Assembly: GCA_963817245.1 (NCBI GenBank)
Contig: CAWFNQ010000002.1
Span: forward strand, 35,281-99,280
DNA from: an uncultured Chloroflexia bacterium
GTDB taxonomy: Bacteria; Chloroflexota; Limnocylindria; Limnocylindrales; CSP1-4
DNA length: 64,000 bases
Direction: 5' to 3'
Notes under the pieces: generated by a model
Told to the model about the DNA's origin: nothing
Databases searched by the model: none
Seen by the model: the letters and a program-made list of their open reading frames with translations, nothing else
Part shown: positions 5,763 to 25,659 of the stretch, piece after piece
Position numbering within the stretch: position 1 is the first letter of the stretch
Layout of the letters: every line of letters begins with the position of its first letter
Translations under genes and position numbers: made by a program

Positions 5763-6134
5763 TCAGTGCGGGCGGGTGGGACCTCCGTCCTTGCGGCCGA
5801 AGCGTCCGGACCGCTGGAGCTCCCGCAGGAAGAGCAACTCGTTGATCTGGCGGATGGACCAGTGGGCTCCCTCGATCGGGATGCCGCACATGAATGCGGT
5901 CAGGTTGGCGGCTTCCTCAGGCGTCAGGCCGAGGGCCGTCAGCGTCCGGTAGGTCCGCTTCGGAGCGGGCGTCGCGGCTGCCGTCGCCCGCTGCCGGCTC
6001 GTCCTCGAGCCGCGGGACGGCGTGGATCCGGGACCAGCTGCGACCCCGGAGGGCACCGACGGAGTTCCCCATGACGAGGCGCGGCGAGATGGTCGCCCGT
6101 GTCCCCGTGAGCCTCGCGGTACCTGGCCGGCCAT
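5763..6134 (-). CDS. Hypothetical protein; only the C-terminal ~65 aa look convincingly coding and the start is uncertain
   Basis: This is the tail of the 511-aa ORF: ...YRTLTALGLTPEEAANLTAFMCGIPIEGAHWSIRQINELLFLRELQRSGRFGRKDGG*. GC3 is high only in this part. The ATG at 6134 is the nearest start. The rest of the 511-aa ORF is judged spurious. Confidence 0.35.
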   Translation of the reverse strand: MAGQVPRGSRGHGRPSRRASSWGTPSVPSGVAAGPGSTPSRGSRTSRQRATAAATPAPKRTYRTLTALGLTPEEAANLTAFMCGIPIEGAHWSIRQINELLFLRELQRSGRFGRKDGGPTRPH

Positions 6135-6293
6135 GGCGCAATCGGAACCCCCGGTCCTGTCCTCGACACCCACCGGAGACCCGGTGGGGTTTCGCGCATG
6201 GTCCGGTGACAGCCTGCGCCGTCGCGATGACCCGGCGGTCCGGGGGACCCCGGTACTTGCGGCCACATGGCCGTCGGTCGGTAGACTCCGCCC

Positions 6294-7478
6294 GTGCGTG
6301 TCCGCCGGTTCGAACTTCGCCTCGTCGGTGCGGCCCTCGTGGCCGGCTGGACGATCGCGGCCGGGTTGGTGCTGTTGGCCTACCGCCCCGGCGGACCCCT
6401 TGACGTCCTCGTCGGGCTGACGCTGGCCGTCCCCATCGCGATCGCCACGGCCGGGACGATCTGGCCGCCCGTGGCCCGCGGCAGCGTCGCGTTCGCCAGC
6501 ATGGTCTGGCTCGGGATCGGTGCGCTCCTGTGCCTCGTCCCGTCCATCGCGGGCCTGATCGACCAGCTCCAGGCGCTCGGCTCGCAGACGTTGCTGCCCT
6601 CGTTCGAGGCCGCCTATCCATGGCTGATCGCGCTGATCGCGACCAGCCTGTTCAGCGGGTTCGGGATCAGCGGGCATGTCCGGGGTCCAGGCGCTCTTCG
6701 CCGGAGGCGGCTCGCCGACGGTGCCTTCATCGCGGTCCTCCTCACGATGTTCTCGGCCACGGTCTTCGCGGGGGCGGCGATGGCGAACGAGCTGGCCGTG
6801 AGGGACACCGTCCCGGCATCGTCCCGCTTCGGGCCGACGGGCCAGGATGCCTGGCCGCCGCTGTGCGACAGCCGGCTGTCGGCGGGACCCGCGGCGCGAC
6901 TGCAGTTCGACCTGAGTGCGACCGTCGACCTGCGACCGATCGGCACGGTCGACGGCAGCGGCACCCGCGCGGGCGCCGATTTCCGCTGGACCGGCTACGC
7001 CGCGACCGACCAGCAGTTCGCCCAGGTCGGCGCAGCCCGGATCGGCCAGGACGCCTGGACGCGCGAGCCGGGAAGGCCGTGGGTCGGGACCGTGACCGCG
7101 GCGGTCGAGAACGACACCCTCGATCTCCAGGTCCTCGATACCGCCCTGGCCGCCGGCAACCGGGCGACGGCCGAGGATCGCGGCGTCGACATCATCGAGG
7201 GGGCCCGGGCTCGGCGCTGCCGCGTCGCCGTCGACGGCACGACGTTCGCCGCCGCCTTCCCGCAGGTCCGCTGGCTCACCGGCAACGCGGACCTGCATCG
7301 CTGGCGCGGGCAGCTCGACTACTGGGTGTTCATGGACGGCGAACTCGGCCAGGTCGCCGGCAGCGCCAGCGGCGAGGCGGCCGGCATCCAGCCCGACACG
7401 ATCCTGGGCCAGGTGGACGTGAAGCTGACCGCGACGGACCGGAACCGCGATCTCGTCGTCGATCCTCCTGCCCCGTGA
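6294..7478 (+). CDS. Hypothetical polytopic membrane protein with a soluble C-terminal domain
   Basis: 394-aa ORF with several N-terminal TM segments (LVGAALVAGWTIAAGLVLLAY, LVGLTLAVPIAIATAG, WLGIGALLCLVPSIAGL, YPWLIALIATSLFSGFG, FIAVLLTMFSATVFAGAA), then a globular region. The stop overlaps the next gene's GTG (GTGA). Confidence 0.7.
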   Translation: MRVRRFELRLVGAALVAGWTIAAGLVLLAYRPGGPLDVLVGLTLAVPIAIATAGTIWPPVARGSVAFASMVWLGIGALLCLVPSIAGLIDQLQALGSQTLLPSFEAAYPWLIALIATSLFSGFGISGHVRGPGALRRRRLADGAFIAVLLTMFSATVFAGAAMANELAVRDTVPASSRFGPTGQDAWPPLCDSRLSAGPAARLQFDLSATVDLRPIGTVDGSGTRAGADFRWTGYAATDQQFAQVGAARIGQDAWTREPGRPWVGTVTAAVENDTLDLQVLDTALAAGNRATAEDRGVDIIEGARARRCRVAVDGTTFAAAFPQVRWLTGNADLHRWRGQLDYWVFMDGELGQVAGSASGEAAGIQPDTILGQVDVKLTATDRNRDLVVDPPAP

Positions 7479-8479
7479 CCGTCGACGACGAGACCGAGGA
7501 CCGGCGGAGCACCAAGCGCGACCGGCTCGCCCGGATGACCCGGCTGATGGGCATCCTCCAGGCCCACCCCGACGGCATGCGCACCGCCGACCTGGCCGAG
7601 CGCGTCGGCATGTCGGTCCGGACCGTCTATCGCGACCTCAAGGCCATCGACGACGAGATCGCCCCGTTGTGGGCCGAGGGCGGCCTGTGGGGCATCGACC
7701 GTGACGGGGCGTTCCTTCCGCCGCTCAAGCTGACCCAGGCCGAGGCGATGGCCGTCGTCCTCTCGGCCCGGCTCATGGTCCGCTACGCCGACAAGTACGA
7801 CCCGGACCTCGCGGCGGCCTTCGAGAAGCTGGCCGTCGGGCTGCCGCCGACCCTCGCCGAGTACGTCGAACGGACCCTCGACGTCATGACGACCGCGCCC
7901 CGCGACGAGCGATTCGCCACGAACGTCCGGCTCCTGACGAAGGCCTGGGCGGAGCGGCGGGTCGTGACGATCCACTACCGGCCGGCCCGCTACGAGGGCG
8001 GTGCCCAGCCGCGGCGGGCCACGGTCCGGCCGTATCTCATCGAGCCGTCGCTGCAGACCCACGCGCTCTATCTGATGGGCTACGACGAGGAGCGAGCGGC
8101 CGTCCGGACCTTCAAGATCGAGCGGATCGAGAGCGCGTCGCTGACCCCGCGGACGTTCGAGCGGCCCGATCCGGCGGCCACCACCGCGGACCTGCGGCGG
8201 GCCTGGGACATCATCGCGGACCAGGAGCCGACCGAGGTCGTCCTGCGCTTCGCGCCGGCCGTCGCGGCCCGGGTCGGCGAGACCCGCTGGCACCCGACCC
8301 AGGTCGTCGAGACCGAGCCGGACGGCTCCCTGCGCTGGCGCGCGACGGTCGCCGGGACCATCGAGATCCGGCTCTGGATCCTCTCGTGGGGCGACGATGT
8401 CGAGGTCCTCGAGCCCCCCGCGCTCCGCGCCGACGTTGCCGCCACACACCGGAGGGCTGCCAGCCGTTACCATTCCTAG
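7475..8479 (+). CDS. WYL-domain transcriptional regulator (HTH + WYL + WCX, YafY-like)
   Basis: This is the tail of ORF 6530-8479: RLARMTRLMGILQAHPDGMRTADLAERVGMSVRTVYRDLKAID (HTH_11-like), then ...RVVTIHYRPARYEGGAQPRRATVRPYLIEPSLQTHALYLMGYDEERAAVRTFKIERI (WYL-like). GTG at 7475 is in frame; ATG alternatives lie a few codons downstream. Confidence 0.8.
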   Translation: MTVDDETEDRRSTKRDRLARMTRLMGILQAHPDGMRTADLAERVGMSVRTVYRDLKAIDDEIAPLWAEGGLWGIDRDGAFLPPLKLTQAEAMAVVLSARLMVRYADKYDPDLAAAFEKLAVGLPPTLAEYVERTLDVMTTAPRDERFATNVRLLTKAWAERRVVTIHYRPARYEGGAQPRRATVRPYLIEPSLQTHALYLMGYDEERAAVRTFKIERIESASLTPRTFERPDPAATTADLRRAWDIIADQEPTEVVLRFAPAVAARVGETRWHPTQVVETEPDGSLRWRATVAGTIEIRLWILSWGDDVEVLEPPALRADVAATHRRAASRYHS

Positions 8480-9253
8480 ATGAGAGTGTTCGCTGGCATG
8501 TTTGCCATCCTGACCCTGCTCGTCTGGGCCCCTACCGCCGAGGCGACCACCTCCACCACCGACCTCGAGTACGGCCTCCTCAACAAGATCAACGACGCCA
8601 GGTCGGACCATGGACTGCGGCCCCTGCGCCCCCTGTCCGGCGTGTGGTCGATCGCCGGGACGCGCGCCGCGCGGATGGCCAGCACGAACGTCCTGAGCCA
8701 CACGATCGCCGGCAGCCTGTCCGCGCAATTGCGGGCCAAGGACGTCCCCTGGTACGCCTACGGCGAGGACGTCGGGTACACCCGGGCGCAGCGCGGGACG
8801 ACCGCGATGAACGACCTGTTCCGGCTCTGGCAGGCGAGCCCGGAACACTGGAAGCTCATGATGAGCTCGGACTACAACTACATCGGCGTGGGCCTCGCCT
8901 ACCGGTCGAGCAACAACAAGACGTTCGGCTCCCTGGTGTTCACCGAATCGCGCGACCAGACCGACGCCCGTACCTACATGAACGGGGTGTCGACCTCGGG
9001 GTCGAGCGCGACCTGGTCGTGGTGGGGCACCGATCCGGTCCTCCAGACCCACACCGCGGGGCTCCGCTCGTTCGACGTCCAGGTCCGGGTGGACGACGGC
9101 AGTTACCGGACGGTCTCGACCAGCACGACCGCGACCGCGCGGATCTGGACCGGCCTCGACTCCGGGCACGTGTACCGGATGCGGGTCCGGGCCCGCGACC
9201 GGGCGGGCAACATCGGCTCCTGGACGGCGCCGGTCGCGGTCCGGATGCCCTGA
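8480..9253 (+). CDS. Secreted CAP/SCP (cysteine-rich secretory protein family) domain protein with a C-terminal beta-sandwich-like domain
   Basis: Signal peptide MRVFAGMFAILTLLVWAPTAEA. CAP-like region is LLNKINDARSDHGLRPL...MASTNVLSH...WQASPEHWKLMMSSDYNYIGVG. The ATG directly follows the WYL gene stop. Confidence 0.75.
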   Translation: MRVFAGMFAILTLLVWAPTAEATTSTTDLEYGLLNKINDARSDHGLRPLRPLSGVWSIAGTRAARMASTNVLSHTIAGSLSAQLRAKDVPWYAYGEDVGYTRAQRGTTAMNDLFRLWQASPEHWKLMMSSDYNYIGVGLAYRSSNNKTFGSLVFTESRDQTDARTYMNGVSTSGSSATWSWWGTDPVLQTHTAGLRSFDVQVRVDDGSYRTVSTSTTATARIWTGLDSGHVYRMRVRARDRAGNIGSWTAPVAVRMP

Positions 9254-9258
9254 CCTAG

Positions 9259-10665
9259 GTGCGCACCCGGCGCTTCGTCGCGGTCAACCTGATCTCGGAT
9301 CCCATCCACGGGTACATCGACCTCACGAAGCGCCTCACCCGGGCCGAGTCCGCGGCCGCGGGCCTCCCCGACGAGGACGTCGCCGAGCAGGACCTGCTCG
9401 ACACCACCTGGCTGCAGCGGCTGCGCCGGATCAGCCAGCTCCAGAGCGCGCGGTGGGTCTTTCCGACGGCCGAGCATTCGCGGTTCACCCATGGGCTCGG
9501 CGTCATGCACGAGGCCGGCCTGTGGGCTCGATCGCTCTACCCGAGCCTTCGGGACGAGCTGGCCGCGGCCGGCGAACCGATCCCGTCCGAGGGGCTGGTC
9601 GTCGAGACGCTGCGCATCGCCGGGCTGCTCCACGACGTCGGGCACGGCCCGTTCGCCCACTTCTTCGACGAGCAGGTGCTCGCGGCGTTCGCGGCGCCCG
9701 CCGACCCGCGCCGGCCCGGCGGCAAGCGCCTGACCCACGAGGACCTCTCCGGCCGGATCATCGAGGACGAGCTGGGTCCACTGATCCGGGGACTCAGGCG
9801 AGCGCCGGCCGGAGTCCCCGAGCGCGCCGCCTTCGCGAGCGACGAGCACCTCGATCCCGCCTGGGTGGCCTACCTGATCTCGAAGCCGGCGCTCGTCGAC
9901 GAGTCGATGCCGCGCTGGCTGCGCTGGCTGCAGCCACTCCTGTCGGGCGTCTTCACGGTCGACAACCTCGACTACGTCCGCCGCGACTCGTACCTGACCG
10001 GCGTCGCGGCCGGACCCGTGGACGTCGAGCGGCTGCGGCGCTACGCGTTCATCTCGTCGCGAGGGCTGACCCTCTACGAGCCCGGGCTCGGCGCCCTGGA
10101 GATCTTCCTGACGGCTCGTCGGTTCATGTACCAACAGGTCTACTTCCATCGGACGGTCCGCGCGATCGACCTCGACCTGGCGGCCGTCTTCGGGCCCTCG
10201 ATCGTCGCGCTCGCCGGCGACCGGTCGCCCGTCGAGGACCTGCGCGCCTACGCCGACCTTGACGAGTACGCGCTCCTGCACCAGGCCGCGCGCTGGGCCC
10301 GCGGCGAGTCCGTCTCGGCGCATCCGCTGGCGGGCGACGGCACCGCCACCCCGGCCATCGCCGATGCCTGGCGGGCGATCCTGCTCCGCCAGCCGACGTG
10401 GCGCGCCGACCGCGAGATCCGCGCCGAATACGAGCCCGGGGGCCGGCCGGACGACCGCATCGCCGCCCTCGGTGCGCCCGAGCCGGGCCGGACGGCGATC
10501 GATCTCGCCGAGGTCGACGCTCGCCCGGCCGGGACGGACGCCGATGCGCTCCTGGCGCTCGAGGCCCGCGACGGCTCGACGATGTCGTTGTCGGACGCGC
10601 TCGCCTCGATCCCGCCGTACTGGCTCATCGCGCGGCGCTACCGGCGGATCACCCCGCCCGCCTGA
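9259..10665 (+). CDS. HD-domain deoxynucleoside triphosphate triphosphohydrolase-like protein (SAMHD1/EF1143-type)
   Basis: DPIHGYIDLT...WLQRLRRISQLQSARWVFPTAEHSRFTHGLGVMHEAG...LLHDVGHGPFAHFFDE...DNLDYVRRDSYLTGV are the characteristic motifs of SAMHD1-like dNTPases. 468 aa, intact. Confidence 0.8.
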   Translation: MRTRRFVAVNLISDPIHGYIDLTKRLTRAESAAAGLPDEDVAEQDLLDTTWLQRLRRISQLQSARWVFPTAEHSRFTHGLGVMHEAGLWARSLYPSLRDELAAAGEPIPSEGLVVETLRIAGLLHDVGHGPFAHFFDEQVLAAFAAPADPRRPGGKRLTHEDLSGRIIEDELGPLIRGLRRAPAGVPERAAFASDEHLDPAWVAYLISKPALVDESMPRWLRWLQPLLSGVFTVDNLDYVRRDSYLTGVAAGPVDVERLRRYAFISSRGLTLYEPGLGALEIFLTARRFMYQQVYFHRTVRAIDLDLAAVFGPSIVALAGDRSPVEDLRAYADLDEYALLHQAARWARGESVSAHPLAGDGTATPAIADAWRAILLRQPTWRADREIRAEYEPGGRPDDRIAALGAPEPGRTAIDLAEVDARPAGTDADALLALEARDGSTMSLSDALASIPPYWLIARRYRRITPPA

Positions 10666-11807: not shown

Positions 11808-12863
11808 ATGACCCTTCCCACCGAACCGATCGGCAGCATCCCCCGGCCCCCCGTGCTCGTCGAGGGCATGGGCGCGGCGGCGGCCGGCCGGATCACCCCC
11901 GAGGAACTCGACGCGCTCTACGACGACGCCGTGCGCGACACGATCCGGCGATTCGAGGCGACCGGCTCGCCGGTCATCACGGACGGCGAGCAGCGCAAGC
12001 CGAGCTTCGCGACCTACCCGGTCGCCGGCCTGCCGCTCGGGTCGGGCGGCGTGACGATCCCCTTCGAGGACGGCCACACGCGGCAGCTGCCGACCCTCAC
12101 GACCGCCCCGTTCCGCTATGCCACCAAGGCGTACGAGTATCTCGACGGCGCCCGCCCGATGACGACGACGCCCCTCAAGCAGGCGGTGATCTCCGCGTCG
12201 GCGATCAGCCTCATGTACCCGGGCGACGGCATCGCCGGATATCCACGTGAGGCCTTCATCGAGGACCTCGTCCGGGAGGCGGCCTCCGAGATCCGCGGCT
12301 GCCTCGACCGGGGTGCGATCGTCCAGATCGACTTCACCGAGGCCCGACTGTCGCTCAAGCTCGACCCGTCGGGCGGGCTCCTCGGTGCCTTCGTGGACCT
12401 GAACAACCGGGTGCTCGAGGGTCTGTCCGACGCGGATCGGGCCCGGGTCGGCGTCCATTCCTGCCCGGGCGGCGACCAGGACTCGACCCACAGTGCCGAC
12501 GTGGACTACGAGTCCCTGCTGCCGATCCTGTGCCGCCTGAACGTTGGCTCGTTCTACGTCCAGCTCGCGAGCGAAGCGGATCGAGCGCCGGCGCTCCGGA
12601 TCCTCGGCGAGCGGGCCGGCAGTCGCCGCGTCTTCGTGGGGGTGATCGACCCGATCGACCCGCGCGTCGAGACGCCCGAGGAGGTCCGGGACCGCATCGT
12701 CGAAGCCGCTCGCTTCATCGATGTGGAGCATCTCGGGACGACCGACGACTGCGGGTTCTCGCCGTTCGGGGACGACCTCTCGACGTCGCGGGACACGGCG
12801 TTCGCCAAGATCCGGGCGCGGGTCGAGGGGAACGCCATGGCCTCGGCCGAACTCGGCGTCTAG
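11808..12863 (+). CDS. Cobalamin-independent methionine synthase family protein (MetE C-terminal-domain-like)
   Basis: MTLPTEPIGSIPRPPVL...ITDGEQRKPSFATYPV...VHSCPGGDQDSTHSADVDY...GTTDDCGFSPF is the typical short MetE-like (Meth_synt_2) protein. An AGGAG Shine-Dalgarno (SD) sequence lies upstream. Confidence 0.75.
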   Translation: MTLPTEPIGSIPRPPVLVEGMGAAAAGRITPEELDALYDDAVRDTIRRFEATGSPVITDGEQRKPSFATYPVAGLPLGSGGVTIPFEDGHTRQLPTLTTAPFRYATKAYEYLDGARPMTTTPLKQAVISASAISLMYPGDGIAGYPREAFIEDLVREAASEIRGCLDRGAIVQIDFTEARLSLKLDPSGGLLGAFVDLNNRVLEGLSDADRARVGVHSCPGGDQDSTHSADVDYESLLPILCRLNVGSFYVQLASEADRAPALRILGERAGSRRVFVGVIDPIDPRVETPEEVRDRIVEAARFIDVEHLGTTDDCGFSPFGDDLSTSRDTAFAKIRARVEGNAMASAELGV

Positions 12864-12866
12864 ACC

Positions 12867-14486
12867 TCAGTTGGGAGTCGAGCCGGGCAGCACCGCGACG
12901 TTCAGCCAGCGCGACCCGGTCGCGCGGCGCATGACGAACGTGAGATCGAACGGCTTCGTCTCGGTCGACAGGAGCTTGCCCGCGGCGTCGTAGGTCTCCT
13001 CGGTCACCGTGCCGGTCGAATCGAGACCCAGGCTCAGGCCGGTCTGCAATCCGAACGGCCGGCGGATCGACATGTCGATGGCGTCGAACGTGTAGTGCGC
13101 AATGGTCGCCTTCCCCGACGACGTGGCCTCCTGCAACCGCTGCTGCATCTCGAGCAGGCGGTCGCCGTGGTCGATCGCCGGGAGGATGGACGCGTCGCGC
13201 CGGAGGAGCGCCTGGTTCTCGAGCTCGATGTTCTCGGCAAGCGTCTGGACGATGTCTCGCGCGCCCTTGTCGGTGATCTCGTTGTCCCAGTCCGTGACGT
13301 CCTTGCCGACCGTGATGGCCGGGAACGTCGCCGGATCGACCTGGTGGGGCACCTGGTCGAGGACCTCGGCCATGTCCGGCCCGATGAGGCCGCGCGCCGG
13401 CGTCCCGGCGGCGACGATCCCGACGCCGAGCCCGAAGACGGCGACGACCAGGACGAGCACCCCGGCGATCCCGCGGAGGGCGCCGGCGCCCGGCTTGCCG
13501 ATGGCCAGTCGCGAAGCGAAGCGACCGACCTGGTCGCCCGCGGACCGCGGCTCGGGGACGAGCCGGTCGAGGATCGGGCGGGCCGCGCAGATGACGACGA
13601 GGCCCGCGAGCAGGCCCACCTTCGTCCCGAACTCGTTGGTCTGCGGCGCCATGAGCAGCGTGCTCGTGATCGCGACGAGCAGGCCGAACAGCACGCGACC
13701 GACCTGCCCACCCGGCGTCGTCTTCGGATCCGTGATCATGAAGAACAGGAAGATCAGGACCTCCGGCGAGGTGACGATCACCCGCCAGAAGTCGAACCCG
13801 CAGACGGGCGCGAACGCCCAGTTCGCGGTCATGCAATGACCGGAGCCGGCGAGGATCCCGACGCCGATCGTGAGCGAGACCCAGAACGTGGCGGCCAGGA
13901 CCAGCAGGTGCAGCCGACGGGTGATGAGCACGCCGCCGGTGATGATCACGGCGTACGCGATGAGCATCCACGGGTCGGTGAGTGGCGCCCACCAGAAATC
14001 GAGCGGCTCGACCCGCGAGCTCCCGAGGACGACGAAGGTGACGACGAGCCCGATGTTCGACGGGTTGAAGACGTGCGTCCCGCGGTACTTGATGACGTAC
14101 TTCGTCAGGAGCGAGAGTCCGGCGACGACCGCGAAGACGTACCAGGCGTAGGTGTTCCACGGGTCGTCCGGCGGCGTGCCCACGACGCGCAGGATCAGGG
14201 CCACGCCGCTGCCGGTGAGCATGGCGCTGGCCGGCCACACGAAGGCGCGCGACGACCGGAAGGTCAGGGCGACCTCGATGATCGCGCAGGTGATGATCGC
14301 CGCGAGGATCTGCGGGATGCTGACCCGGAAGTGGAGCCCCACCTGACCGAGGACGTGGATCGTGATGATCACCGACGCGACGTGCAGGCGCGGATCCCGG
14401 ATGCTCGGCAGGAAGACCGGATAGGTCGTGCCGCCCAGCGTGAGAGTCCGCGACGGCGGCCGGGCAGGGGTCGGCGCGGCGGTCAT
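12867..14486 (-). CDS. Polytopic membrane protein (N-terminal NqrB/RnfD-like region, tentative) with a C-terminal extracytoplasmic domain
   Basis: 539-aa intact ORF with about 9 predicted TM segments (e.g. HVFNPSNIGLVVTFVVLG), then a soluble tail (EITDKGARDIVQTLAENIELENQALLRRD...). Family assignment is from memory of the FNP motif only. Confidence 0.6.
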   Translation of the reverse strand: MTAAPTPARPPSRTLTLGGTTYPVFLPSIRDPRLHVASVIITIHVLGQVGLHFRVSIPQILAAIITCAIIEVALTFRSSRAFVWPASAMLTGSGVALILRVVGTPPDDPWNTYAWYVFAVVAGLSLLTKYVIKYRGTHVFNPSNIGLVVTFVVLGSSRVEPLDFWWAPLTDPWMLIAYAVIITGGVLITRRLHLLVLAATFWVSLTIGVGILAGSGHCMTANWAFAPVCGFDFWRVIVTSPEVLIFLFFMITDPKTTPGGQVGRVLFGLLVAITSTLLMAPQTNEFGTKVGLLAGLVVICAARPILDRLVPEPRSAGDQVGRFASRLAIGKPGAGALRGIAGVLVLVVAVFGLGVGIVAAGTPARGLIGPDMAEVLDQVPHQVDPATFPAITVGKDVTDWDNEITDKGARDIVQTLAENIELENQALLRRDASILPAIDHGDRLLEMQQRLQEATSSGKATIAHYTFDAIDMSIRRPFGLQTGLSLGLDSTGTVTEETYDAAGKLLSTETKPFDLTFVMRRATGSRWLNVAVLPGSTPN

Positions 14487-19457: not shown

Positions 19458-19534
19458 CCGCCCGTAGCTCAGTGGATCAGAGCGACTGACTTCGGATCAG
19501 TAGGTCGGGGGTTCGAATCCCTCCGGGCGGGCCA
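19458..19534 (+). tRNA. tRNA-Arg (anticodon UCG)
   Basis: Hand-folded cloverleaf: acceptor CCGCCCG/CGGGCGG, D arm GCTC-AGTGGATCA-GAGC, anticodon stem ACTGA/TCAGT with loop CTTCGGA (anticodon TCG), T arm GGGGG-TTCGAAT-CCCTC, discriminator G, encoded CCA. Confidence 0.9.
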
Positions 19535-19536
19535 GC
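19514..19536 (+). repeat. attL-like 23-bp direct repeat (3' end of tRNA-Arg)
   Basis: CGAATCCCTCCGGGCGGGCCAGC is identical to 22445-22467. Confidence 0.8.
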
Positions 19537-19690
19537 TCGCCGCCATCACGGCCGGCGGATCATCACCGTCAACGCGCGGCCGAAGCGGTCAGTACCACCG
19601 ATGCGTCCGGACCTGCCGCGTGTGCGCCGCCCGAGCCGCGATGCGCAGACGCGAGCGCGAGATCATCCGGTCGCACCGTATGCTCGCTGG

Positions 19691-22357
19691 ATGGCGAGCC
19701 AGCTGTCCCGGTCGCGCGCTGCTTCCCTCCCCGTCGGCACGCTGACGTTCCTGTTCACGGACATCGAGGGATCGACCCGTCTCGTGGCTGCCCTGGGACC
19801 TGCGTTCGGCCCGCTTATCGAGCGCCACCACGCCGTCTTGCGCGCCGCGATCGGGGAGGCCGGTGGGATCGAGGTCTCCACCGAGGGAGACGCATTCTTC
19901 GTCGTCTTCCAGAGCGCCATTGCGGCAGTGGCGGGGACGGTCGCCGCACAGCGTTCCCTCGCGGCCGAGCCCTGGCTCCCCGGGGTCGGCGCCATCCGCG
20001 TTCGGATGGGACTCCACACGGGCGAGGGCATCCTGGGCGGAGAGGACTACGTGGGCCTCGATGTCCATCGGACGGCGCGGATCGCGGCGGCCGCCCACGG
20101 CGGCCAGATCCTCGTCTCCGAGGCGACGGCGACCCTCGTGCGAGACTCGCTGCCGGGAGATCTGCGATTGCGCGAACTCGGCGAGTTCCGGCTCAAGGAT
20201 CTCGACAAGCCCGAGCGCCTAGCCCAGCTCTCCGGGCCGGGCCTTTCCGACGACTTCCCGCCGCCGCGCACGCTGGAGACTCCGTCCAACCTGCCGACCG
20301 AGGTGACGACCTTCGTTGGCCGTGAACGCGAGGTCGGCGAGGTCTGCGAACTGGTGCGTCGGTCGCGGCTCGTGACGCTGACAGGCCCCGGCGGGTCTGG
20401 CAAGACACGGCTCAGCCTTCGCGTGGCCGAGCAGCTCCAGCCGGAGTACGCGAGCGGCGCCTTCTTCGTGGAGCTCGCCCCGATCAGCGACGCTGGCTTG
20501 ATCCCGACGACCATCGCCCAGGCGATCGGTCTCCGCGAGGACCCGCAGTGGCCGATCGTCGAGCTCCTTGAGGCGCACCTGCGCGATCTGCACCTGCTGC
20601 TCATCGCCGACAACTTCGAGCAGGTCGTCGATGGCGCACCGGTGGTGGGTCGGCTCCTCATGGCCGCGCCACACCTGACCGTCCTCGCGTCAAGCCGCGA
20701 GGTCCTTCACCTCCGGGGCGAGCAGGAGTATCCGGTCCCGCCGCTGGGCGTCCCCGACCCCCGCGACCTGCCGCCGCCCGAATCGCTCACTCGGTTCGAT
20801 GCGGTCGCGCTCTTCATCCAGCGCGCGCGTGCCGTGCGCCCCGACTTCGAGCTCGACGCTCAGAACGCATCGGCGGTCGCCGCCATCTGCATCCGCCTTG
20901 ACGGCCTCCCCCTCGCCATCGAGCTGGCCGCGGCCCGCATCAAGCTCTTCGATCCGACAGCGATCCTCGCACGGCTCGACAGGAGCTTGACGCTCCTGAC
21001 GAGCAGCGAACGCGATATCCCCGAGCGACAGCGCACCCTGCGCGGGGCCATCGCCTGGAGCCAAGACCTGCTGGACGAGCCGGAGCGCGTCCTCTTGAGA
21101 CGGCTCGCCGTGTTCGTCGGCAGCTGTACCGTCGACGGTGTGCTGGCAGTCTGCGACCCGGACGGCGAGCTTGATCTCGACATGCTCGACGCCCTGGGCT
21201 CGCTCGTCGACAAGAGTCTCCTGAAGCGAGTCGGATCGCCGGATGGCGAGCCCCGCTTCCTCATGTTGCAGACCATTCGCGACTACGGGCTGGAGCGGCT
21301 CATCGAGAGCGGTGAGGCAGAGCTGGTCCAGCGCCGGCACGAAGATCACTTCGTGGCCCTCGCACGGGCGGCCGAGCCCGAGCTCCTCGGCGCCCGCCCG
21401 ACGGAGTGGCTCGACCTCCTTGATGCCGAGCGGGACGACCTACGGGCGGCGATCCAGCGAGCGGCTGACGATGGGCGGATCGAGGTGGCCCTCGACGCGG
21501 CCGCGGCGCTGTGGCGGTTCTGGCAGCAGCGGGGACACCTGGTCGAGGGCCGCGAGACGCTCCGGGCGCTGCTCGACCTACCCACGGCGGCCAACCCGAC
21601 CGGGGCCCGCGCCAGGGCGCTCGGCGGCCTCGGCGGCGTGGCGTACTGGCAGGCTGACATCGCCACTGCCCAGCGCGCCTATGCGGAAGCCGTCTCCATC
21701 GAGCGCGGGCTCGATGACCGGGCCGGGCTCGCTGAAGCGCTATACAACGCCGGGTTCGTCGATGCGCTCATCGGCGATAGTCCTCGCGCTCGGGCCGAGT
21801 ACGACGAGGCGATCCGCATCTACGAGGCGATCGGGAACCGCAAGGGCCTGCTGGACGTTCGCGAGGCGCTTGTCTTCATCCACCTGCACTCCGGTGATCT
21901 GTCGGCGGCACGCGACGTCGAACGGCAGACGCTGGCGGACTTCCGGATCGCGGGCGAGTCCTTGCGGATCGCCAGCGCCCTGAGCGCCGGCACCCTGATT
22001 GACGTGCTGGACGGGGAGTACGAGGCGGCCCATGAGAGCCTCGACGAGGCACTCGCCATGTTCCGTGCGGCGGGCGATATGCAGCGCGTCTCCAGCCTCC
22101 TCACCATGGCGGCGGCCTTAGCGCTCGGCGAGGGCGACGCCGAGCGTGCCGCACGCCTCAGCGGTGCCGCCGCGGTGCTGATGGAACCGCTGGGCCACGT
22201 CGCCACGCCGATGCAGCTCCTGCGGTTGGATGACCCTGTGCCTGCGGCCCGAGCGGCTCTGGGCGACGACGCCTTCGATGGCGCGTATGCAGCGGGACGG
22301 TCGCTGAGCCTCGACGAGGCCCTCGAGCTGGCGCGCGCGAGGACGGCACCGACCTGA
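19691..22357 (+). CDS. Class III adenylate/guanylate cyclase domain fused to a P-loop NTPase (NB-ARC/AAA-like) and TPR repeats (STAND-type signalling protein)
   Basis: LTFLFTDIEGSTRL...GIEVSTEGDAFFVVF...VRMGLHTGE...GLDVHRTARIAAAAHGGQILVS is the cyclase domain. FVGREREVGEV...LVTLTGPGGSGKTRL is the Walker A. LLIADNFEQV is Walker B-like. The C-terminal ~400 aa are TPR-like. ATG 19691 (MASQLSR) is preferred over the ORF-track start 19601. Confidence 0.85.
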   Translation: MASQLSRSRAASLPVGTLTFLFTDIEGSTRLVAALGPAFGPLIERHHAVLRAAIGEAGGIEVSTEGDAFFVVFQSAIAAVAGTVAAQRSLAAEPWLPGVGAIRVRMGLHTGEGILGGEDYVGLDVHRTARIAAAAHGGQILVSEATATLVRDSLPGDLRLRELGEFRLKDLDKPERLAQLSGPGLSDDFPPPRTLETPSNLPTEVTTFVGREREVGEVCELVRRSRLVTLTGPGGSGKTRLSLRVAEQLQPEYASGAFFVELAPISDAGLIPTTIAQAIGLREDPQWPIVELLEAHLRDLHLLLIADNFEQVVDGAPVVGRLLMAAPHLTVLASSREVLHLRGEQEYPVPPLGVPDPRDLPPPESLTRFDAVALFIQRARAVRPDFELDAQNASAVAAICIRLDGLPLAIELAAARIKLFDPTAILARLDRSLTLLTSSERDIPERQRTLRGAIAWSQDLLDEPERVLLRRLAVFVGSCTVDGVLAVCDPDGELDLDMLDALGSLVDKSLLKRVGSPDGEPRFLMLQTIRDYGLERLIESGEAELVQRRHEDHFVALARAAEPELLGARPTEWLDLLDAERDDLRAAIQRAADDGRIEVALDAAAALWRFWQQRGHLVEGRETLRALLDLPTAANPTGARARALGGLGGVAYWQADIATAQRAYAEAVSIERGLDDRAGLAEALYNAGFVDALIGDSPRARAEYDEAIRIYEAIGNRKGLLDVREALVFIHLHSGDLSAARDVERQTLADFRIAGESLRIASALSAGTLIDVLDGEYEAAHESLDEALAMFRAAGDMQRVSSLLTMAAALALGEGDAERAARLSGAAAVLMEPLGHVATPMQLLRLDDPVPAARAALGDDAFDGAYAAGRSLSLDEALELARARTAPT

Positions 22358-22444
22358 GCGAGGGCTCCGTTGCCGGTCGTTCCTCCTTGACCCGAGTATG
22401 GCGTCGCTGATCTGCATGCGGCTCGTGTGTTGTTCATACGCGCC

Positions 22445-22467
22445 CGAATCCCTCCGGGCGGGCCAGC
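22445..22467 (+). repeat. attR-like 23-bp direct repeat of the tRNA-Arg 3' end
   Basis: CGAATCCCTCCGGGCGGGCCAGC is identical to 19514-19536. No tRNA body precedes it. Confidence 0.8.
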
Positions 22468-22714
22468 ATCCACGCGCGAAGCGACCCCGGACCAGCGTCC
22501 GCGGGTCGTTCTGATTCGGCCGCCCCCGAGCCGGTACCCAACTCGGGCGCGTGGGACCCTCGGCAGGCAAGGATCACGTCGGTCTGATCGGCTGCTCCGC
22601 CGAGCATCGCGTCGGTCAGGTGGCCGGAGACGTCAGCCGTGGAGGTCAGAGTTGCGTGGCCGAATGCCCGTTTGGCCCCGCAAGGTCGCGTGACTCGTGA
22701 TTCGTCCCGTCAGG

Positions 22715-23104
22715 TCAGCTCCAGAACTCATCGTCGGCGTACTGGTCGCCGGGGTGGAACCACGATTCGGTAACCTTGCCGCTCTTGACGTGGAAGACCT
22801 GCGCGCCGTTGTCCTTCAGCATCTTCCCTTCACGTTGCGCGGTCAGCGTGACCAGGGCGACGACATGCTCGTCGTTCGCCAGCACATCGTGGATTTCGGT
22901 GCGGAAGGTGCCGCCCGCACGCACGGCGAGGCTAGCGAAGAACCCGAGGACGTCGGCTTTGCCCTTGTAGTCCCCCGCGATCGGGCTGCGTCCGCCGGCG
23001 TGCCAGACGATGTCGTCGGCGAATAGCTCGCTCAGCGTCCCGACGTCTCCACTCCCGAATGCCGCGTAGCCGCGACGGACCAGATCCTCGTTCGGATGCG
23101 CCAT
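22715..23104 (-). CDS. SnoaL-like / NTF2-fold protein
   Basis: 129 aa: MAHPNEDLVRRGYAAFGSGDVGTLSELFADDIVWHAGG...VFHVKSGKVTESWFH is the typical SnoaL_2 pattern. Confidence 0.7.
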   Translation of the reverse strand: MAHPNEDLVRRGYAAFGSGDVGTLSELFADDIVWHAGGRSPIAGDYKGKADVLGFFASLAVRAGGTFRTEIHDVLANDEHVVALVTLTAQREGKMLKDNGAQVFHVKSGKVTESWFHPGDQYADDEFWS

Positions 23105-23198
23105 TCTCCGCTCCTCCTCGTGGCTCGGGACTACTGCGACCGGTCGCCGGATGCGCCGGGACTCGCTGCTGTTCCGTCCGATCCCGCGGCGGTGAACC

Positions 23199-24212
23199 TT
23201 ACGGCTGATGGAACCTGAGTACGACGTCGCCGAACGGCTGTGACCCGTAGATATCGCCTTGCTTGTCTACGGCGATCAACCCGACATCGGGGGAAAAGCC
23301 GCTCAGTGCGGCCAGGAAGGCCCCGCTGCCGTCGTACTTGCAGATTCGATCGTTGACCAGGTCGTTCACATAGACGTTGCCCTGGGAATCGAGCGCCACG
23401 CCCGTTGCCTCCATTAAGGGACGGTCGTCCCCGCAGCCATCCCACTTCGCCACGAACTGCATGTCGCGATCGAACACCTGGAGCCCATTCTGGCGGTCCG
23501 TCACGTAGACATTCCCAAGGGCGTCGGTGGCGATGTCGGCGAGTTCCTCGCTGAATTGACCGGCGCCGATGCCTCGGCTGCCCCATTTCGCCAGGAACTT
23601 GCCGTTGTTGTCGAACTTCTGGATACGCGACGTGATCGGATCGCCGACGTAGACGTTCCCATCTCGATCGACGGTTATGCCGAACGGGCCAGTGAACTGA
23701 CCGTTCCCCTTACCCGGGCTGCCCCACTTCGCGAGGAACTTGCCGTTGCCGTCGAACTTCTGGACACGATAGTTGCCGGAGTCCGTGACATACACGTTCC
23801 CATCGCCATCGACGGCCAGCCCACAGACGCCGCAGTCGAACTGACCGTCCTTGCTGCCCTGGCTGCCCCACTTCCGGAGTAGGTGCCCCTCGCCGTCGAG
23901 CTTTTGGATCCGGGAGTTGCCGGCATCCGCCACATACAGATCGCCTTTCTGGTCGAGCCCGATCCCGTCCGGCTTGCTGAACAGGTCCGGCGCACCGGTG
24001 AACGTCGAGACCAACTCCATGGGGCTCGGTGTGGACCGGCTCGTGGCCGGCGACGCGGCGACCGTCGGCGCCGCCGCAGAAGGCGCCGCCACGAAGGTCG
24101 ACCCGCGCGGGGTGATGCTTGGCGCGGAAGTCGGTCCCGGTCCAGAGCTACAGCCGGACATCAGGAGGCTGGCGACGATGACGCCCAGCCATGCAGGGGG
24201 CCGCGCGATCAA
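23199..24212 (-). CDS. NHL-repeat beta-propeller lipoprotein
   Basis: Lipobox LLMSGC-S. It has six repeats of the type GQFxxPxGIAVDxxGNVYVxDxxNxRIQKF. Confidence 0.8.
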   Translation of the reverse strand: MIARPPAWLGVIVASLLMSGCSSGPGPTSAPSITPRGSTFVAAPSAAAPTVAASPATSRSTPSPMELVSTFTGAPDLFSKPDGIGLDQKGDLYVADAGNSRIQKLDGEGHLLRKWGSQGSKDGQFDCGVCGLAVDGDGNVYVTDSGNYRVQKFDGNGKFLAKWGSPGKGNGQFTGPFGITVDRDGNVYVGDPITSRIQKFDNNGKFLAKWGSRGIGAGQFSEELADIATDALGNVYVTDRQNGLQVFDRDMQFVAKWDGCGDDRPLMEATGVALDSQGNVYVNDLVNDRICKYDGSGAFLAALSGFSPDVGLIAVDKQGDIYGSQPFGDVVLRFHQP

Positions 24213-24407
24213 GGCTGGATGCTGAATCTCGTCTTCACATATCGCTCTTCTGACCTCACGTCGGGCGAGCAGAACGGCGAGATCCTTTGGGCGGACCGTC
24301 TGCGTCCACGTCGGAACATACGCCCAAGCCGTATCGGCGGCGTCCGCAGTCCGGCACGGTGGAGGCAGCCGAGCCCGGTCGCGAGACGATGCGCGCCATT
24401 CCGACCA

Positions 24408-24440
24408 TCGAAAGAGGCCGGCCCAGTGTGGGCCGGCCTC
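24408..24440 (-). terminator. Intrinsic terminator after the ester-cyclase gene
   Basis: On the minus strand GAGGCCGGCCCA-CAC-TGGGCCGGCCTC forms a perfect 12-bp stem followed by TTTCGAT. It lies between gene 24482-24919 and the NHL gene. Confidence 0.65.
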
Positions 24441-24481
24441 GTGAGTCTGCGGCTGAGTGACCTAGGGGGTCGATCTCGCGA

Positions 24482-24919
24482 CTAGACCGTGACGGGGGTC
24501 CGTCCGGGAGCTGCGATGACGCCCAGCTGGACCATCATGCCCAACTCCTGGATCAGGCCCCAATGCTCAACGACGTGCTCGTTGGCGACACGCGAGATGT
24601 GGATCTCAGTCCACGTCGCGCGCTTGCCGGTGGCCGGCATGCCGGCGAATTCGCCGCGCATCGTGCCGCTTGCGGTGAGCCGAGTCACGAACTTGTCGCC
24701 AGCCTCGATCGAATCGTCGATCGTGTAGTGAAGGTCCGGGAACGCCGTACGGAGCGACGTCACGAACTGCTTGAAGCCCTCGCGTGTCGGCGCCACGCCG
24801 CTCTGCGGCATCCGTTCGACATACTCGGGCGCGTAGAGCTCGTCGATGAGCTGCAGCTTGCCCTGGTTGTAGATCTCGAGCGGGATCCGGTCGAGCTTGG
24901 TCTTGAGGATCGTGGTCAT
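24482..24919 (-). CDS. Ester cyclase / SnoaL-like polyketide cyclase family protein
   Basis: MTTILKTKLDRIPLEIYNQGKLQLIDELYAPEYVERMP...FPDLHYTIDDSIEAGDKFVTRLTASGTMRGEFAGMPATGKRATWTEIHISRV. 145 aa from ATG 24919; the longer ORF-track N-terminus is judged spurious. Confidence 0.75.
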   Translation of the reverse strand: MTTILKTKLDRIPLEIYNQGKLQLIDELYAPEYVERMPQSGVAPTREGFKQFVTSLRTAFPDLHYTIDDSIEAGDKFVTRLTASGTMRGEFAGMPATGKRATWTEIHISRVANEHVVEHWGLIQELGMMVQLGVIAAPGRTPVTV

Positions 24920-25047
24920 GGGAAACCACCTCTCGTTGTTGCGTCGGCACTGCCGCGACGGTGGCCCAGTGGCGACGTTGCTTGGTCGCGGCTGTGTGGA
25001 ACCTCCGGCGTCTCGTGCTTGTGTGGGAACAGCACTGACACTGCGTA

Positions 25048-25659
25048 GTGTATGGTACGAGTCACATGATGTCAACCGAACGATTGACGCCGACCTCCTA
25101 CCTCGTGCTGGGTTTGCTGGCGCGCGAGGGGCCCTCGACCCCCTACGCGCTCGAGCGGCAGGTCGCGGCCACGCTGGGCAATTTCTGGTCATTCCCTCAT
25201 ACCCTGCTGTACAGCGAGCCGACACGCCTCGAGGCGCTCGGGCTGGTGACCGAGAATCGCGAGTCGGGAGGTCGACGCCGACGCATGTTCGCGATCACGC
25301 CGATCGGCCGCGAGGCGCTCGGGGCCTGGCTCGAGCGGCCTGCCGACGTACCGACAGAGCTTCGTGACCGCGGGCTGCTTCAGCTCTTCTTCATGGACCT
25401 GGCCTCCGACGAAGCCCGTCTGCGCCTTGCGCAGAAGCAACTCGCGATCCATCGATCGAAGCTGTCGGCGTACGAGATCGATGCTCGCCTCGAGCGACGG
25501 GGTGGCACGACGGGTATGGGCGTTCGGACCGCCGAGCATTGGCGAGGGGCGACCCTGCCGATGGGCCTGCTGTACGAGCGAGCAGCTGTCGCCTTCTGGA
25601 CCAGCGTCGCCGAGGACGCGGCGGGGCCCGACGCAGCCAGCGAACCGGCCGGGCCGTGA
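25048..25659 (+). CDS. PadR family transcriptional regulator
   Basis: LTPTSYLVLGLLAREGPSTPYALERQVAATLGNFWSFPHTLLYSEPTRLEALGLV is the PadR winged helix, followed by a C-terminal dimerisation-type domain. It is divergent from the ester cyclase. The start may be a few codons downstream. Confidence 0.75.
   Translation: MYGTSHMMSTERLTPTSYLVLGLLAREGPSTPYALERQVAATLGNFWSFPHTLLYSEPTRLEALGLVTENRESGGRRRRMFAITPIGREALGAWLERPADVPTELRDRGLLQLFFMDLASDEARLRLAQKQLAIHRSKLSAYEIDARLERRGGTTGMGVRTAEHWRGATLPMGLLYERAAVAFWTSVAEDAAGPDAASEPAGP

What the first reader, a model, noticed from the sequence alone, without database searches (positions are those of the whole stretch)
19514..22467. Integrase-less 2.9-kb islet at tRNA-Arg(UCG) bounded by a perfect 23-bp repeat of the tRNA 3' end
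CGAATCCCTCCGGGCGGGCCAGC occurs at 19514-36, spanning the T-arm to CCA and 2 nt beyond of the tRNA. It occurs again at 22445-67 with no tRNA body in front. This is the classical attL/attR signature of site-specific integration into a tRNA 3' end. Between the repeats there is only one convincing gene (19691-22357). I found no integrase, excisionase or replication gene in any frame. The segment is therefore either the stripped remnant of a larger element or a minimal cargo mobilised in trans. Its composition looks like the host, which suggests it is not recent.
Basis: seen in the sequence. Interest (0 to 1): 0.6.

Follow-up and report, generated by a model that had tools for sequence, protein, structure and literature searches.

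The report
Recombinase-less gene cassette at tRNA-Arg
A 2.9-kb single-gene insert really is spliced into the 3' end of a tRNA-Arg gene in this soil Chloroflexota genome; it is one of many small recombinase-less cassettes piled at a genus-wide insertion hot spot, a known kind of mobile DNA in a new lineage.

Summary
CGAATCCCTCCGGGCGGGCCAGC occurs at 19514-36 (the end of tRNA-Arg(TCG), 19458-19534) and at 22445-67, and nowhere else in the 3.27-Mb genome.

- **It is an insertion.** Joining the tRNA to the flank after copy 2 gives a sequence that aligns colinearly with three same-genus species.
- **Cargo.** There is one gene, 19691-22357, encoding a class III cyclase-STAND-TPR protein. It is about 90% identical in DNA to copies in other species, whose core flanks are 69-78% identical.
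- **Hot spot.** About 25 of 116 genus genomes that carry the site have extra direct copies of the tRNA end, 0.4-16 kb downstream.
- **Shared arm.** Twenty-two such cassettes, including this one, end in a conserved non-tRNA arm, GTTGTTC(C/G)TGCGCGCC. None encodes a recombinase.
- **Recombinases at the same tRNA in relatives.** Large serine recombinase (LSR) elements have a related arm and the same junction. Tyrosine-integrase elements have a 46-52-bp repeat.
A dead tyrosine-integrase remnant lies just outside the islet, at 22530-22670 on the minus strand.

Best reading: a CIME-like cassette integrated in trans, probably by an LSR. It closely parallels the Dehalococcoides ssrA islands. It is a new member of a known kind.

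The parts
19458..19534 (+). tRNA-Arg(TCG), intact, CCA encoded. It serves as the attachment site and was reconstituted after the insertion.
   Evidence: ARAGORN. It is 77/77 identical to the tRNA of 19 other species of the genus.
19514..19536 (+). Repeat copy 1 (attL core): mid T-loop to CCA plus GC.
19537..22444 (+). Inserted islet (cassette), 2908 bp, with no recombinase gene.
   Evidence: Colinear empty-site alignment with G136, G080 and G129c13. No PF00589, PF07508 or LSR hit inside it.
19649..19690 (+). Upstream stretch conserved with the gene in other species. It includes a -10-like TATGCT (19679-19684) 6 nt before the ATG. I infer it is the cassette's own promoter and that the mRNA is leaderless or nearly so.
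   Evidence: Homology with G059, G072, L112 and L113 begins at 19593-19650. The promoter role is inferred, not tested.
19691..22357 (+). Cargo gene: class III adenylate/guanylate cyclase + STAND (AAA_16/nSTAND) NTPase + TPR, 888 aa, intact.
   Evidence: Pfam, PDB cyclase domains, NCBIfam. No meaningful PADLOC hit. It belongs to a family with about 1-17 copies per genome in most of the genus.
22429..22444 (+). Conserved element-side arm GTTGTTCATACGCGCC ('type A' arm). It is not derived from the tRNA.
   Evidence: The same arm precedes the tRNA-end copy in 22 cassettes from more than 15 genomes or contigs.
22445..22467 (+). Repeat copy 2 (attR core): the displaced original 3' end of the tRNA.
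22468..22516 (+). Former tRNA downstream flank: motif ATCCACGCGCGAA, a hairpin (22483-22507) and a T-rich run. In relatives this flank directly follows the tRNA.
   Evidence: Alignments.
22530..22670 (-). C-terminal remnant of a tyrosine integrase (IntY pseudogene). The catalytic Tyr is replaced by Ser and there is a stop upstream. It belongs to an older element layer and is not part of the islet.
   Evidence: tblastn against the G129 integrase C-terminus: 45% over 47 aa, E 2e-8. An intact 373-aa homologue lies in the same position in G052 (PF00589, 100 bits).

Best explanation
The segment 19537-22444 is a small recombinase-less gene cassette. It was inserted by site-specific recombination into the 3' end of tRNA-Arg(TCG).

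The crossover lay in or just after the T-loop. The incoming DNA brought its own copy of the tRNA end, which now completes the tRNA (attL). The original tRNA end was pushed 2.9 kb downstream (attR), where it still carries the tRNA's former flank.

The cassette's right end is a conserved 16-nt arm that it shares with at least 21 other mini-cassettes (0.4-6 kb, median about 1.2 kb) at the same tRNA in related species. None of these encodes a recombinase. The enzyme was therefore supplied in trans. The most likely source is a large serine recombinase (LSR) of the family found at this same tRNA end in relatives. The behaviour is that of a cis-mobilizable element or cassette.

The cargo is a cyclase-STAND-TPR signalling gene with its own promoter-like region, acquired from another species of the genus.

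Shown: the repeat, the insertion, the hot spot, the shared arm, horizontal origin of the gene, and the absence of a recombinase in the islet and of an LSR in the assembly. Inferred: which recombinase acted, that it acted in trans, and whether the cassette can still move. Its left end lacks any conserved half-site, so it may now be fixed.
For: - **Repeat.** It is exact, and only two copies exist in the genome.
- **Empty site.** The tRNA joined to the 22468+ flank aligns in one HSP with G136 (77% over 280 nt), G080 (77% over 261) and G129c13 (73% over 265).
- **Hot spot.** Twenty species have 20 different sequences after CCA. Twenty-five genomes carry two or more direct copies of the 16-mer on one contig. 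Arrays reach 6-7 sites in G005 and G072. The variable region spans 4-54 kb.
- **Shared arm.** Twenty-two sites carry the arm. Positions 1-5 of the 21-mer often differ from the tRNA (CGACG or CGATG against CGAAT), while CCCTCCGGGCGGGCCA is kept. This places the junction at the T-loop/T-stem border.
- **Cassettes behave as site-to-site units.** G005 8526-9639 corresponds to G059 12466-13529. G005 7501-8525 corresponds to G072 21835-22861 at 96.5%, ending exactly at the site.
- **Horizontal origin.** The islet gene is 90.6% identical to G059, 89.9% to L112 and 85% to L113. Core flanks are 69-78% identical.
- **LSR link.** Intact LSRs of 533 and 551 aa (L097, L096) and many C-terminal remnants read into this tRNA end in 11 of 13 contigs examined.
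  - Their distal arm (GGTTGGCACCGCGCGCT) matches the type A arm at 11 of 16 positions.
  - Their repeat starts at the same place.
- **Remnants.** No type A cassette has an LSR remnant at its own left end, whereas remnants are common for LSR elements.
- **Precedent.** The Dehalococcoides ssrA islands show the same design (PMC3146451).
Against: - No recombinase has been seen next to any type A arm, so the LSR assignment rests on arm similarity, junction position and co-occurrence at the same tRNA.
- G000 has no LSR, and only Xer-like intact tyrosine recombinases. The assembly is about 86% complete and MAGs tend to lose mobile elements.
- The cassette's left end (19537-19592) has no conserved half-site. 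The GAACAAC motif that would make a palindromic attP occurs at only a few junctions.
- In G059, L112 and L114 the homologous gene lacks these boundaries. In L113 a site lies only on the left.
- No excised circle or empty-site read was found. The available runs are too shallow to show one.
Confidence: 0.6

Rival explanations
1. Stripped remnant. A larger integrase- or LSR-bearing island integrated here. An internal deletion later removed its recombination module and left only the distal cargo gene and the distal arm.
For: LSR and tyrosine-integrase remnants are common at this tRNA in relatives and in metagenome contigs, so decay is frequent. The islet's left end lacks any conserved half-site. 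G093's own LSR has a degenerate N-terminus.
Against: The deletion would have had to end exactly 2 nt after CCA and leave no trace of the recombinase gene. None of the 22 type A cassettes, some only 0.4-1 kb long, shows a remnant at its left end. Elements with the other arm types do show remnants.
Confidence: 0.2
2. Capture by the neighbouring resident tyrosine integrase (IntY). That gene once lay directly behind the tRNA and is now the remnant at 22530-22670. This would be an integron-like arrangement, with cassettes inserted between the tRNA and the integrase gene.
For: The IntY remnant lies immediately beyond copy 2. tRNA, terminator and IntY are adjacent in at least 12 genus genomes, and IntY is intact in G052. 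At least 5 type A sites are followed by this IntY-type flank. The type A arm contains an inverted version of the flank motif GCGCACGAA.
Against: Elements that carry IntY have a different signature. Their repeat is 46-52 bp, starting in the anticodon stem, and their distal arms lack GTTGTTC. Most array-bearing genomes have only dead IntY remnants.
Confidence: 0.12
3. No dedicated recombinase. Cassettes were exchanged between species by transformation and homology-facilitated recombination. The 77-bp identical tRNA served as one anchor and the roughly 40-bp arm plus core as microhomology.
For: The tRNA is 100% identical across the genus. Gene homology in G059, L112 and L114 does not respect site boundaries.
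Against: This does not explain the precise duplication of the tRNA end, the conserved non-tRNA arm at a fixed distance, or the sharp junction at the T-loop seen in many independent cassettes.
Confidence: 0.06
4. Target-site duplication by a transposase, a chance repeat, or an assembly artefact.
For: An IS481-family element in relatives does insert exactly after CCA with a 15-bp duplication, CCTCCGGGCGGGCCA.
Against: The islet has no terminal inverted repeats and no transposase. A 23-bp exact repeat is not expected by chance (0 in 100 shuffles). The attL junction is present in an independent metagenome contig.
Confidence: 0.02

Closest known systems
Dehalococcoides ssrA genomic islands (McMurdie et al. 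2011, PMC3146451), including their integrase-less members, which were proposed to be cis-mobilizable elements
   Same: The phylum is the same (Chloroflexota). The target is the 3' end of a small structured RNA gene. [quoted passage not shown] Islands form tandem arrays downstream of the gene. A CcrB/XisF-like large serine recombinase sits on the reverse strand next to attL in the complete elements. Many islands lack any integration module.
   Different: The target here is tRNA-Arg(TCG), not tmRNA. The lineage is Limnocylindrales-type soil Chloroflexota. The cassettes are much smaller (median about 1.2 kb, often a single gene). The type A class has never been seen with its recombinase. No DsiA/RecF/ParB-type integration module was identified. 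Homology of this LSR to DsiB was not tested directly.
CIMEs (cis-mobilizable elements) of streptococcal ICE/IME systems
   Same: The element is flanked by attL and attR, has no integrase or transfer genes, and lies at a site used by integrase-bearing elements. Tandem accretion is seen (listing; PMC3146451 discusses the concept).
   Different: CIMEs are defined relative to a known parental ICE and its tyrosine integrase. Here no parent element is known, and mobilization has not been demonstrated.
Tycheposons and island remodelling at tRNA genes in Prochlorococcus (bioRxiv 10.1101/2020.12.28.424599)
   Same: Integration is targeted to a tRNA. Repeated integration pushes older elements outward. 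Partial tRNAs and fragmented integrases are scattered through a hypervariable island. Both tyrosine and large serine recombinases are used.
   Different: Tycheposons are defined by hallmark genes (a deep-branching tyrosine recombinase and replication genes). None is present in the islet.
Integron gene cassettes
   Same: The units are small, often single-gene, lack a recombinase, end in a conserved recombination site, and are stacked next to one attachment site.
   Different: There is no IntI-type integrase beside the attachment site. Gene orientation is mixed. This cassette appears to have its own promoter. The site is a tRNA-end mimic rather than an attC.

Membership tests
tRNA-integrated genomic island (site-specific att duplication) | Direct repeat identical to the 3' part of the tRNA bounds the insert | tested here: met
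   23/23 identical. Only two copies exist in the genome.
tRNA-integrated genomic island (site-specific att duplication) | An intact tRNA is reconstituted at attL | tested here: met
   ARAGORN call. The tRNA is 77/77 identical to that of 19 other species.
tRNA-integrated genomic island (site-specific att duplication) | Relatives show the uninterrupted (empty) site | tested here: met
   The joined flanks align colinearly with G136, G080 and G129c13.
tRNA-integrated genomic island (site-specific att duplication) | An integrase gene lies inside the island next to an att site | tested here: not met
   No PF00589, PF07508 or LSR hit in 19537-22444. The integrase remnant at 22530-22670 lies outside the islet.
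Cis-mobilizable element (CIME) | Flanked by attL and attR but lacking recombination and transfer genes | tested here: met
Cis-mobilizable element (CIME) | Integrase-bearing elements use the same att site, so that trans recombination or accretion is possible | tested here: inconclusive
   LSR elements and IntY elements occupy the same tRNA end in relatives, and tandem arrays exist. None was found in G000, and no recombinase has been linked to the type A arm.
Cis-mobilizable element (CIME) | Demonstrated excision or mobilization | not testable with these tools
   The available runs are shallow short-read assemblies and show no joints.
Dehalococcoides-type LSR islands (ssrA-GI design) | Direct repeat of about 20 bp starting mid T-loop, with a conserved non-target motif directly upstream of the distal repeat | tested here: met
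   The repeat begins at CGAAT of the T-loop. The arm GTTGTTC(C/G)TGCGCGCC is present at 22 sites.
Dehalococcoides-type LSR islands (ssrA-GI design) | Large serine recombinase on the reverse strand adjacent to attL | tested here: not met
   Absent from the window and from G000. Present in G093, L096 and L097, with remnants in G005, G022 and other contigs.
Dehalococcoides-type LSR islands (ssrA-GI design) | Target is ssrA (tmRNA) | tested here: not met
   The target is tRNA-Arg(TCG).
Integron cassette | IntI-type tyrosine recombinase beside the attachment site, and attC-type folded site at the cassette's 3' end | tested here: not met
   No conserved integrase upstream of the tRNA. The site forms only a 6-bp hairpin, z = -1.9. 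Gene orientation in the arrays is mixed.
Transposon or IS with target-site duplication | Terminal inverted repeats and a transposase | tested here: not met
   The islet ends are unrelated to each other, and no transposase is present.

The most novel reading that the evidence does not exclude
The type A units form an integron-like cassette system that does not use an integron integrase. In this reading there are dozens of recombinase-less, mostly single-gene cassettes. Each ends in a roughly 37-bp site made of a conserved arm plus a mimic of the tRNA-Arg 3' end. They are shuffled between species and stacked at the tRNA by a recombinase supplied in trans, either a large serine recombinase or the resident tyrosine integrase. 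This builds 4-54-kb flexible regions in a whole genus of soil Chloroflexota.
Probability: 0.25. Interest if true: 0.7.

Novelty: new member of a known kind. Interest (0 to 1): 0.45.

Why it matters
The finding shows how an uncultured, abundant soil Chloroflexota lineage acquires and reshuffles accessory genes. One tRNA-Arg gene acts as a landing pad for at least three kinds of integrating DNA, and it accumulates small cassettes that carry signalling and metabolic genes.

The design repeats what was described for the Dehalococcoides ssrA islands. This suggests that a shared way of building flexible regions may be widespread in the phylum.

If the recombinase-less cassettes prove to be moved in trans, they would be a serine-recombinase (or resident-integrase) counterpart of integron cassettes. 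Their short, well-defined site would also be a candidate substrate for genome-engineering recombinases.

Tried and rejected
- **Tyrosine integrases near the tRNA.** A search of 19 relatives found none. I first took this to mean no tyrosine integrase ever sat there. A later tblastn with a short C-terminal ORF showed that remnants are common. The Pfam-based genome search had missed them.
- **The flank motif plus terminator.** I first read it as the pristine chromosomal flank. It is in fact the left end of an older IntY element.
- **The 400-aa ORFs next to the tRNA in G005, G010 and G004.** I suspected integrases. They are IS481-family DDE transposases.
- **The 15.8-kb segment between two full tRNA copies in G072.** I checked it for mobility genes. 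By eye it reads as heterodisulfide-reductase and [NiFe]-hydrogenase-like cargo, and no family search was run.
- **A palindromic attP model (GTTGTTC-N30-GAACAAC).** It folds well, but the right-hand motif is present at only a few junctions, so I did not adopt it.
- **Viral contigs.** They contain no type A or LSR-type junction. The two hits to the bare core are unrelated.
- **Reads from four soil runs.** They are too shallow and fragmented to show excision.
- **PADLOC.** It gave no meaningful defence-system hit for the cargo protein.
- **Earlier-findings look-ups.** They added nothing about the islet's mobility.
Full report
**Observation**

ARAGORN finds a single tRNA in the window, tRNA-Arg(TCG) at 19458-19534 on the plus strand, with CCA encoded. 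The 23-mer CGAATCCCTCCGGGCGGGCCAGC lies at 19514-19536 and again at 22445-22467. There are no further copies even with 3 mismatches allowed, and none in 100 shuffles. The whole 3.27-Mb assembly (6 contigs, about 86% complete) contains only these two copies.

[quoted passage not shown] Copy 2 is preceded by sequence unrelated to the tRNA.

The only convincing gene between the copies is 19691-22357 (888 aa). It encodes a class III adenylate/guanylate cyclase domain, a STAND/AAA_16 NTPase and TPR repeats. It has no meaningful match to known defence systems. The islet's G+C (0.69-0.715) is host-like. An independent soil metagenome contig spans the tRNA-islet junction (19500-19871, 3 differences), so that junction is not an assembly artefact.

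**It is an insertion**

The tRNA is 77/77 identical in 19 other species of the genus. Yet each of 20 fetched loci has a different sequence immediately after CCA.

The sequence after copy 2 has three parts:
- a short motif, ATCCACGCGCGAA;
- a hairpin followed by a T-rich run;
- on the minus strand, a C-terminal remnant of a tyrosine integrase (22530-22670). It matches the G129 integrase C-terminus at 45% over 47 aa, has Ser in place of the catalytic Tyr, and has a stop upstream.

The same series (tRNA, motif, terminator, integrase) directly follows the tRNA in at least 12 other species. The integrase is intact in G052 (373 aa; PF00589, 100 bits).

I joined window 19458-19536 to 22468-22720 in a script. 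The joined sequence aligns in one colinear piece with G136 (77% over 280 nt), G080 (77% over 261) and G129c13 (73% over 265). It also shows that the islet landed between the tRNA and an older, now dead, tyrosine-integrase element.

**The locus is a genus-wide hot spot**

In 131 genus genomes the 16-nt core CCCTCCGGGCGGGCCA was found in 116. Twenty-five of these have two or more copies on one contig, always as direct repeats 0.4-16 kb downstream of this tRNA. A few further copies lie on separate short contigs. The reversed-pattern control gave one hit. Arrays reach 6-7 sites in G005 and G072. The distance from the tRNA to the first conserved core gene (the homologue of window 33079+) ranges from about 4 kb to about 54 kb.

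**Three kinds of integrating DNA use this tRNA**

1. *Tyrosine-integrase (IntY) elements.* Their repeat is 46-52 bp long and starts in the anticodon stem. The integrase lies next to the tRNA.
2. *Large serine recombinase (LSR) elements.* The LSR gene lies on the reverse strand and reads through the tRNA end (…ARPEGFEPPTY).
   - G093 carries an 8.5-kb element whose LSR has a degenerate N-terminus.
   - Intact LSRs of 533 and 551 aa occur in metagenome contigs L097 and L096.
   - C-terminal remnants occur in G005, G022 and other contigs.
   - Eleven of 13 contigs examined have the LSR or its remnant at tRNA-Arg(TCG).
   - The enzyme is XisF/CcrB-like.
   - The distal end has the arm GGTTGGCACCGCGCGCT directly before a roughly 21-bp copy of the tRNA end.
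3. *'Type A' cassettes, to which the window's islet belongs.* The distal copy of the tRNA end is preceded by the conserved arm GTTGTTC(C/G)TGCGCGCC.
   - I found 22 such sites in more than 15 genomes or contigs.
   - Cassette sizes are 0.4-6 kb, with a median of about 1.2 kb.
   - Cargo includes cyclases, a serine hydrolase, an SDR-cyclase fusion, an apparent ABC ATPase (read by eye) and others.
   - None has a recombinase gene or a recombinase remnant at its own left end.

In most type A sites the first five bases differ from the tRNA (CGACG or CGATG against CGAAT), while CCCTCCGGGCGGGCCA is conserved. This places the junction at the T-loop/T-stem border, the same place as in the LSR elements. 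The type A and LSR-type arms match at 11 of 16 positions.

**Cassettes move**

- The islet gene, with about 40-100 bp upstream, is 90.6% identical in DNA to a copy in the G059 array. It is 89.9% identical to L112, 85% to L113, and about 80% to G072 and L114. The conserved core flank is only 69-78% identical between the same genomes.
- Other cassettes are shared as site-to-site units in different neighbourhoods. G005 7501-8525 matches G072 21835-22861 at 96.5% and ends exactly at the site. G005 8526-9639 corresponds to G059 12466-13529, flanked by sites in both genomes.
- The homologues of the window's gene do not all keep the same boundaries. L113 has a site 15 bp upstream but none downstream, and G059 and L112 have none nearby.
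- Units can therefore be re-cut, or their sites can decay.

**Mechanism**

The best-supported reading is classical site-specific integration of a circular DNA that carried the arm plus a copy of the tRNA end. The recombinase came from elsewhere. G000 has no LSR. Its only intact tyrosine recombinases are the two Xer-like genes.

I favour an LSR for three reasons: the junction position is the same, the arm is related, and LSR elements recur at this exact site. Confidence is about 0.6 for the combined statement and about 0.9 for site-specific insertion as such.

The alternatives are:
- a deletion remnant of a larger element (0.2);
- capture by the once-functional neighbouring IntY (0.12);
- homology-facilitated exchange (0.06).

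The islet's left end has no conserved half-site, so it may no longer be excisable.

**Comparison with known systems**

The closest described system is the family of Dehalococcoides ssrA genomic islands (PMC3146451). It shares these features:
- a 20-bp repeat of the RNA gene's 3' end that starts in the T-loop;
- a conserved 15-bp non-target motif upstream of each repeat;
- tandem arrays within 100 kb;
- a CcrB-family LSR on the reverse strand next to attL;
- 15 islands without an integration module, which the authors suggested are cis-mobilizable elements.

Tycheposon-driven island remodelling at tRNAs in Prochlorococcus is a more distant parallel.

The present case differs in four ways: the target is tRNA-Arg, the lineage is Limnocylindrales-type MAGs by their record titles, the cassettes are very small, and the type A class consistently lacks a recombinase.

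**Verdict**

This is a new member of a known kind. It is of moderate interest, mainly for the genus-wide cassette pattern.

Noticed in passing
window 22530-22670 (-): C-terminal remnant of a tyrosine integrase directly beyond repeat copy 2. The catalytic Tyr is replaced by Ser and the N-terminal part is lost. It marks an older integrated element whose distal end is no longer detectable.
   Followed up: yes
window 22700-25300: Lower-G+C stretch (0.62-0.68) carrying SnoaL-like (22715-23104 -), NHL beta-propeller (23199-24212 -) and SnoaL (24482-25225 -) genes. It is absent between the site and the SDR gene homologue in G007. It may be cargo of the old integrase element.
   Followed up: partly
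L039 (G005) 6078-7389; also L046, L056, G059, L085, L087, L113: An IS481-family insertion sequence (DDE transposase, ends TGTCAT...GACA) sits exactly after the CCA of the tRNA or of its copies in at least 7 genomes or contigs. It is flanked by a 15-bp duplication, CCTCCGGGCGGGCCA. L085 keeps only a 47-bp remnant made of the two ends. The IS seems to target this sequence while keeping the tRNA intact.
   Followed up: partly
G000 genome: C1:7405-9654 (Gly-CCC), C1:1221632-1223718 (Val-TAC, 3 copies), C1:623038-628905 (Arg-TCT), C2:548223-552656 (Thr-CGT), C2:808054-817974 (Pro-CGG): Five other tRNAs of this genome have nearby duplicated 5' or 3' end fragments (19-50 bp) that bound 1-10-kb segments. 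Only the Arg-TCT segment holds broken integrase pieces. A separate remnant lies next to tRNA-Pro(GGG) at C1:930500-930730.
   Followed up: no
G072:C29:65130-81017 (loci L063/L061): Two complete tRNA-Arg(TCG) genes lie 15.8 kb apart. Between them, by eye only, are heterodisulfide-reductase and [NiFe]-hydrogenase-like genes. An 80% identical, apparently frameshifted copy of the window's cyclase gene also lies there.
   Followed up: partly
window 19691-22357: Precomputed Pfam lists for homologues at 79-88% identity include PF25872 (HTH_77). My Pfam scan of the window protein did not report it. The protein may therefore contain a helix-turn-helix or winged-helix module after all.
   Followed up: no
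L067 (G093) 12284-13771: The only LSR found next to this tRNA among the 131 genus genomes lacks the first ~41 Pfam Resolvase-model positions, catalytic-serine region included. It is probably inactive, or the sequence carries errors.
   Followed up: partly
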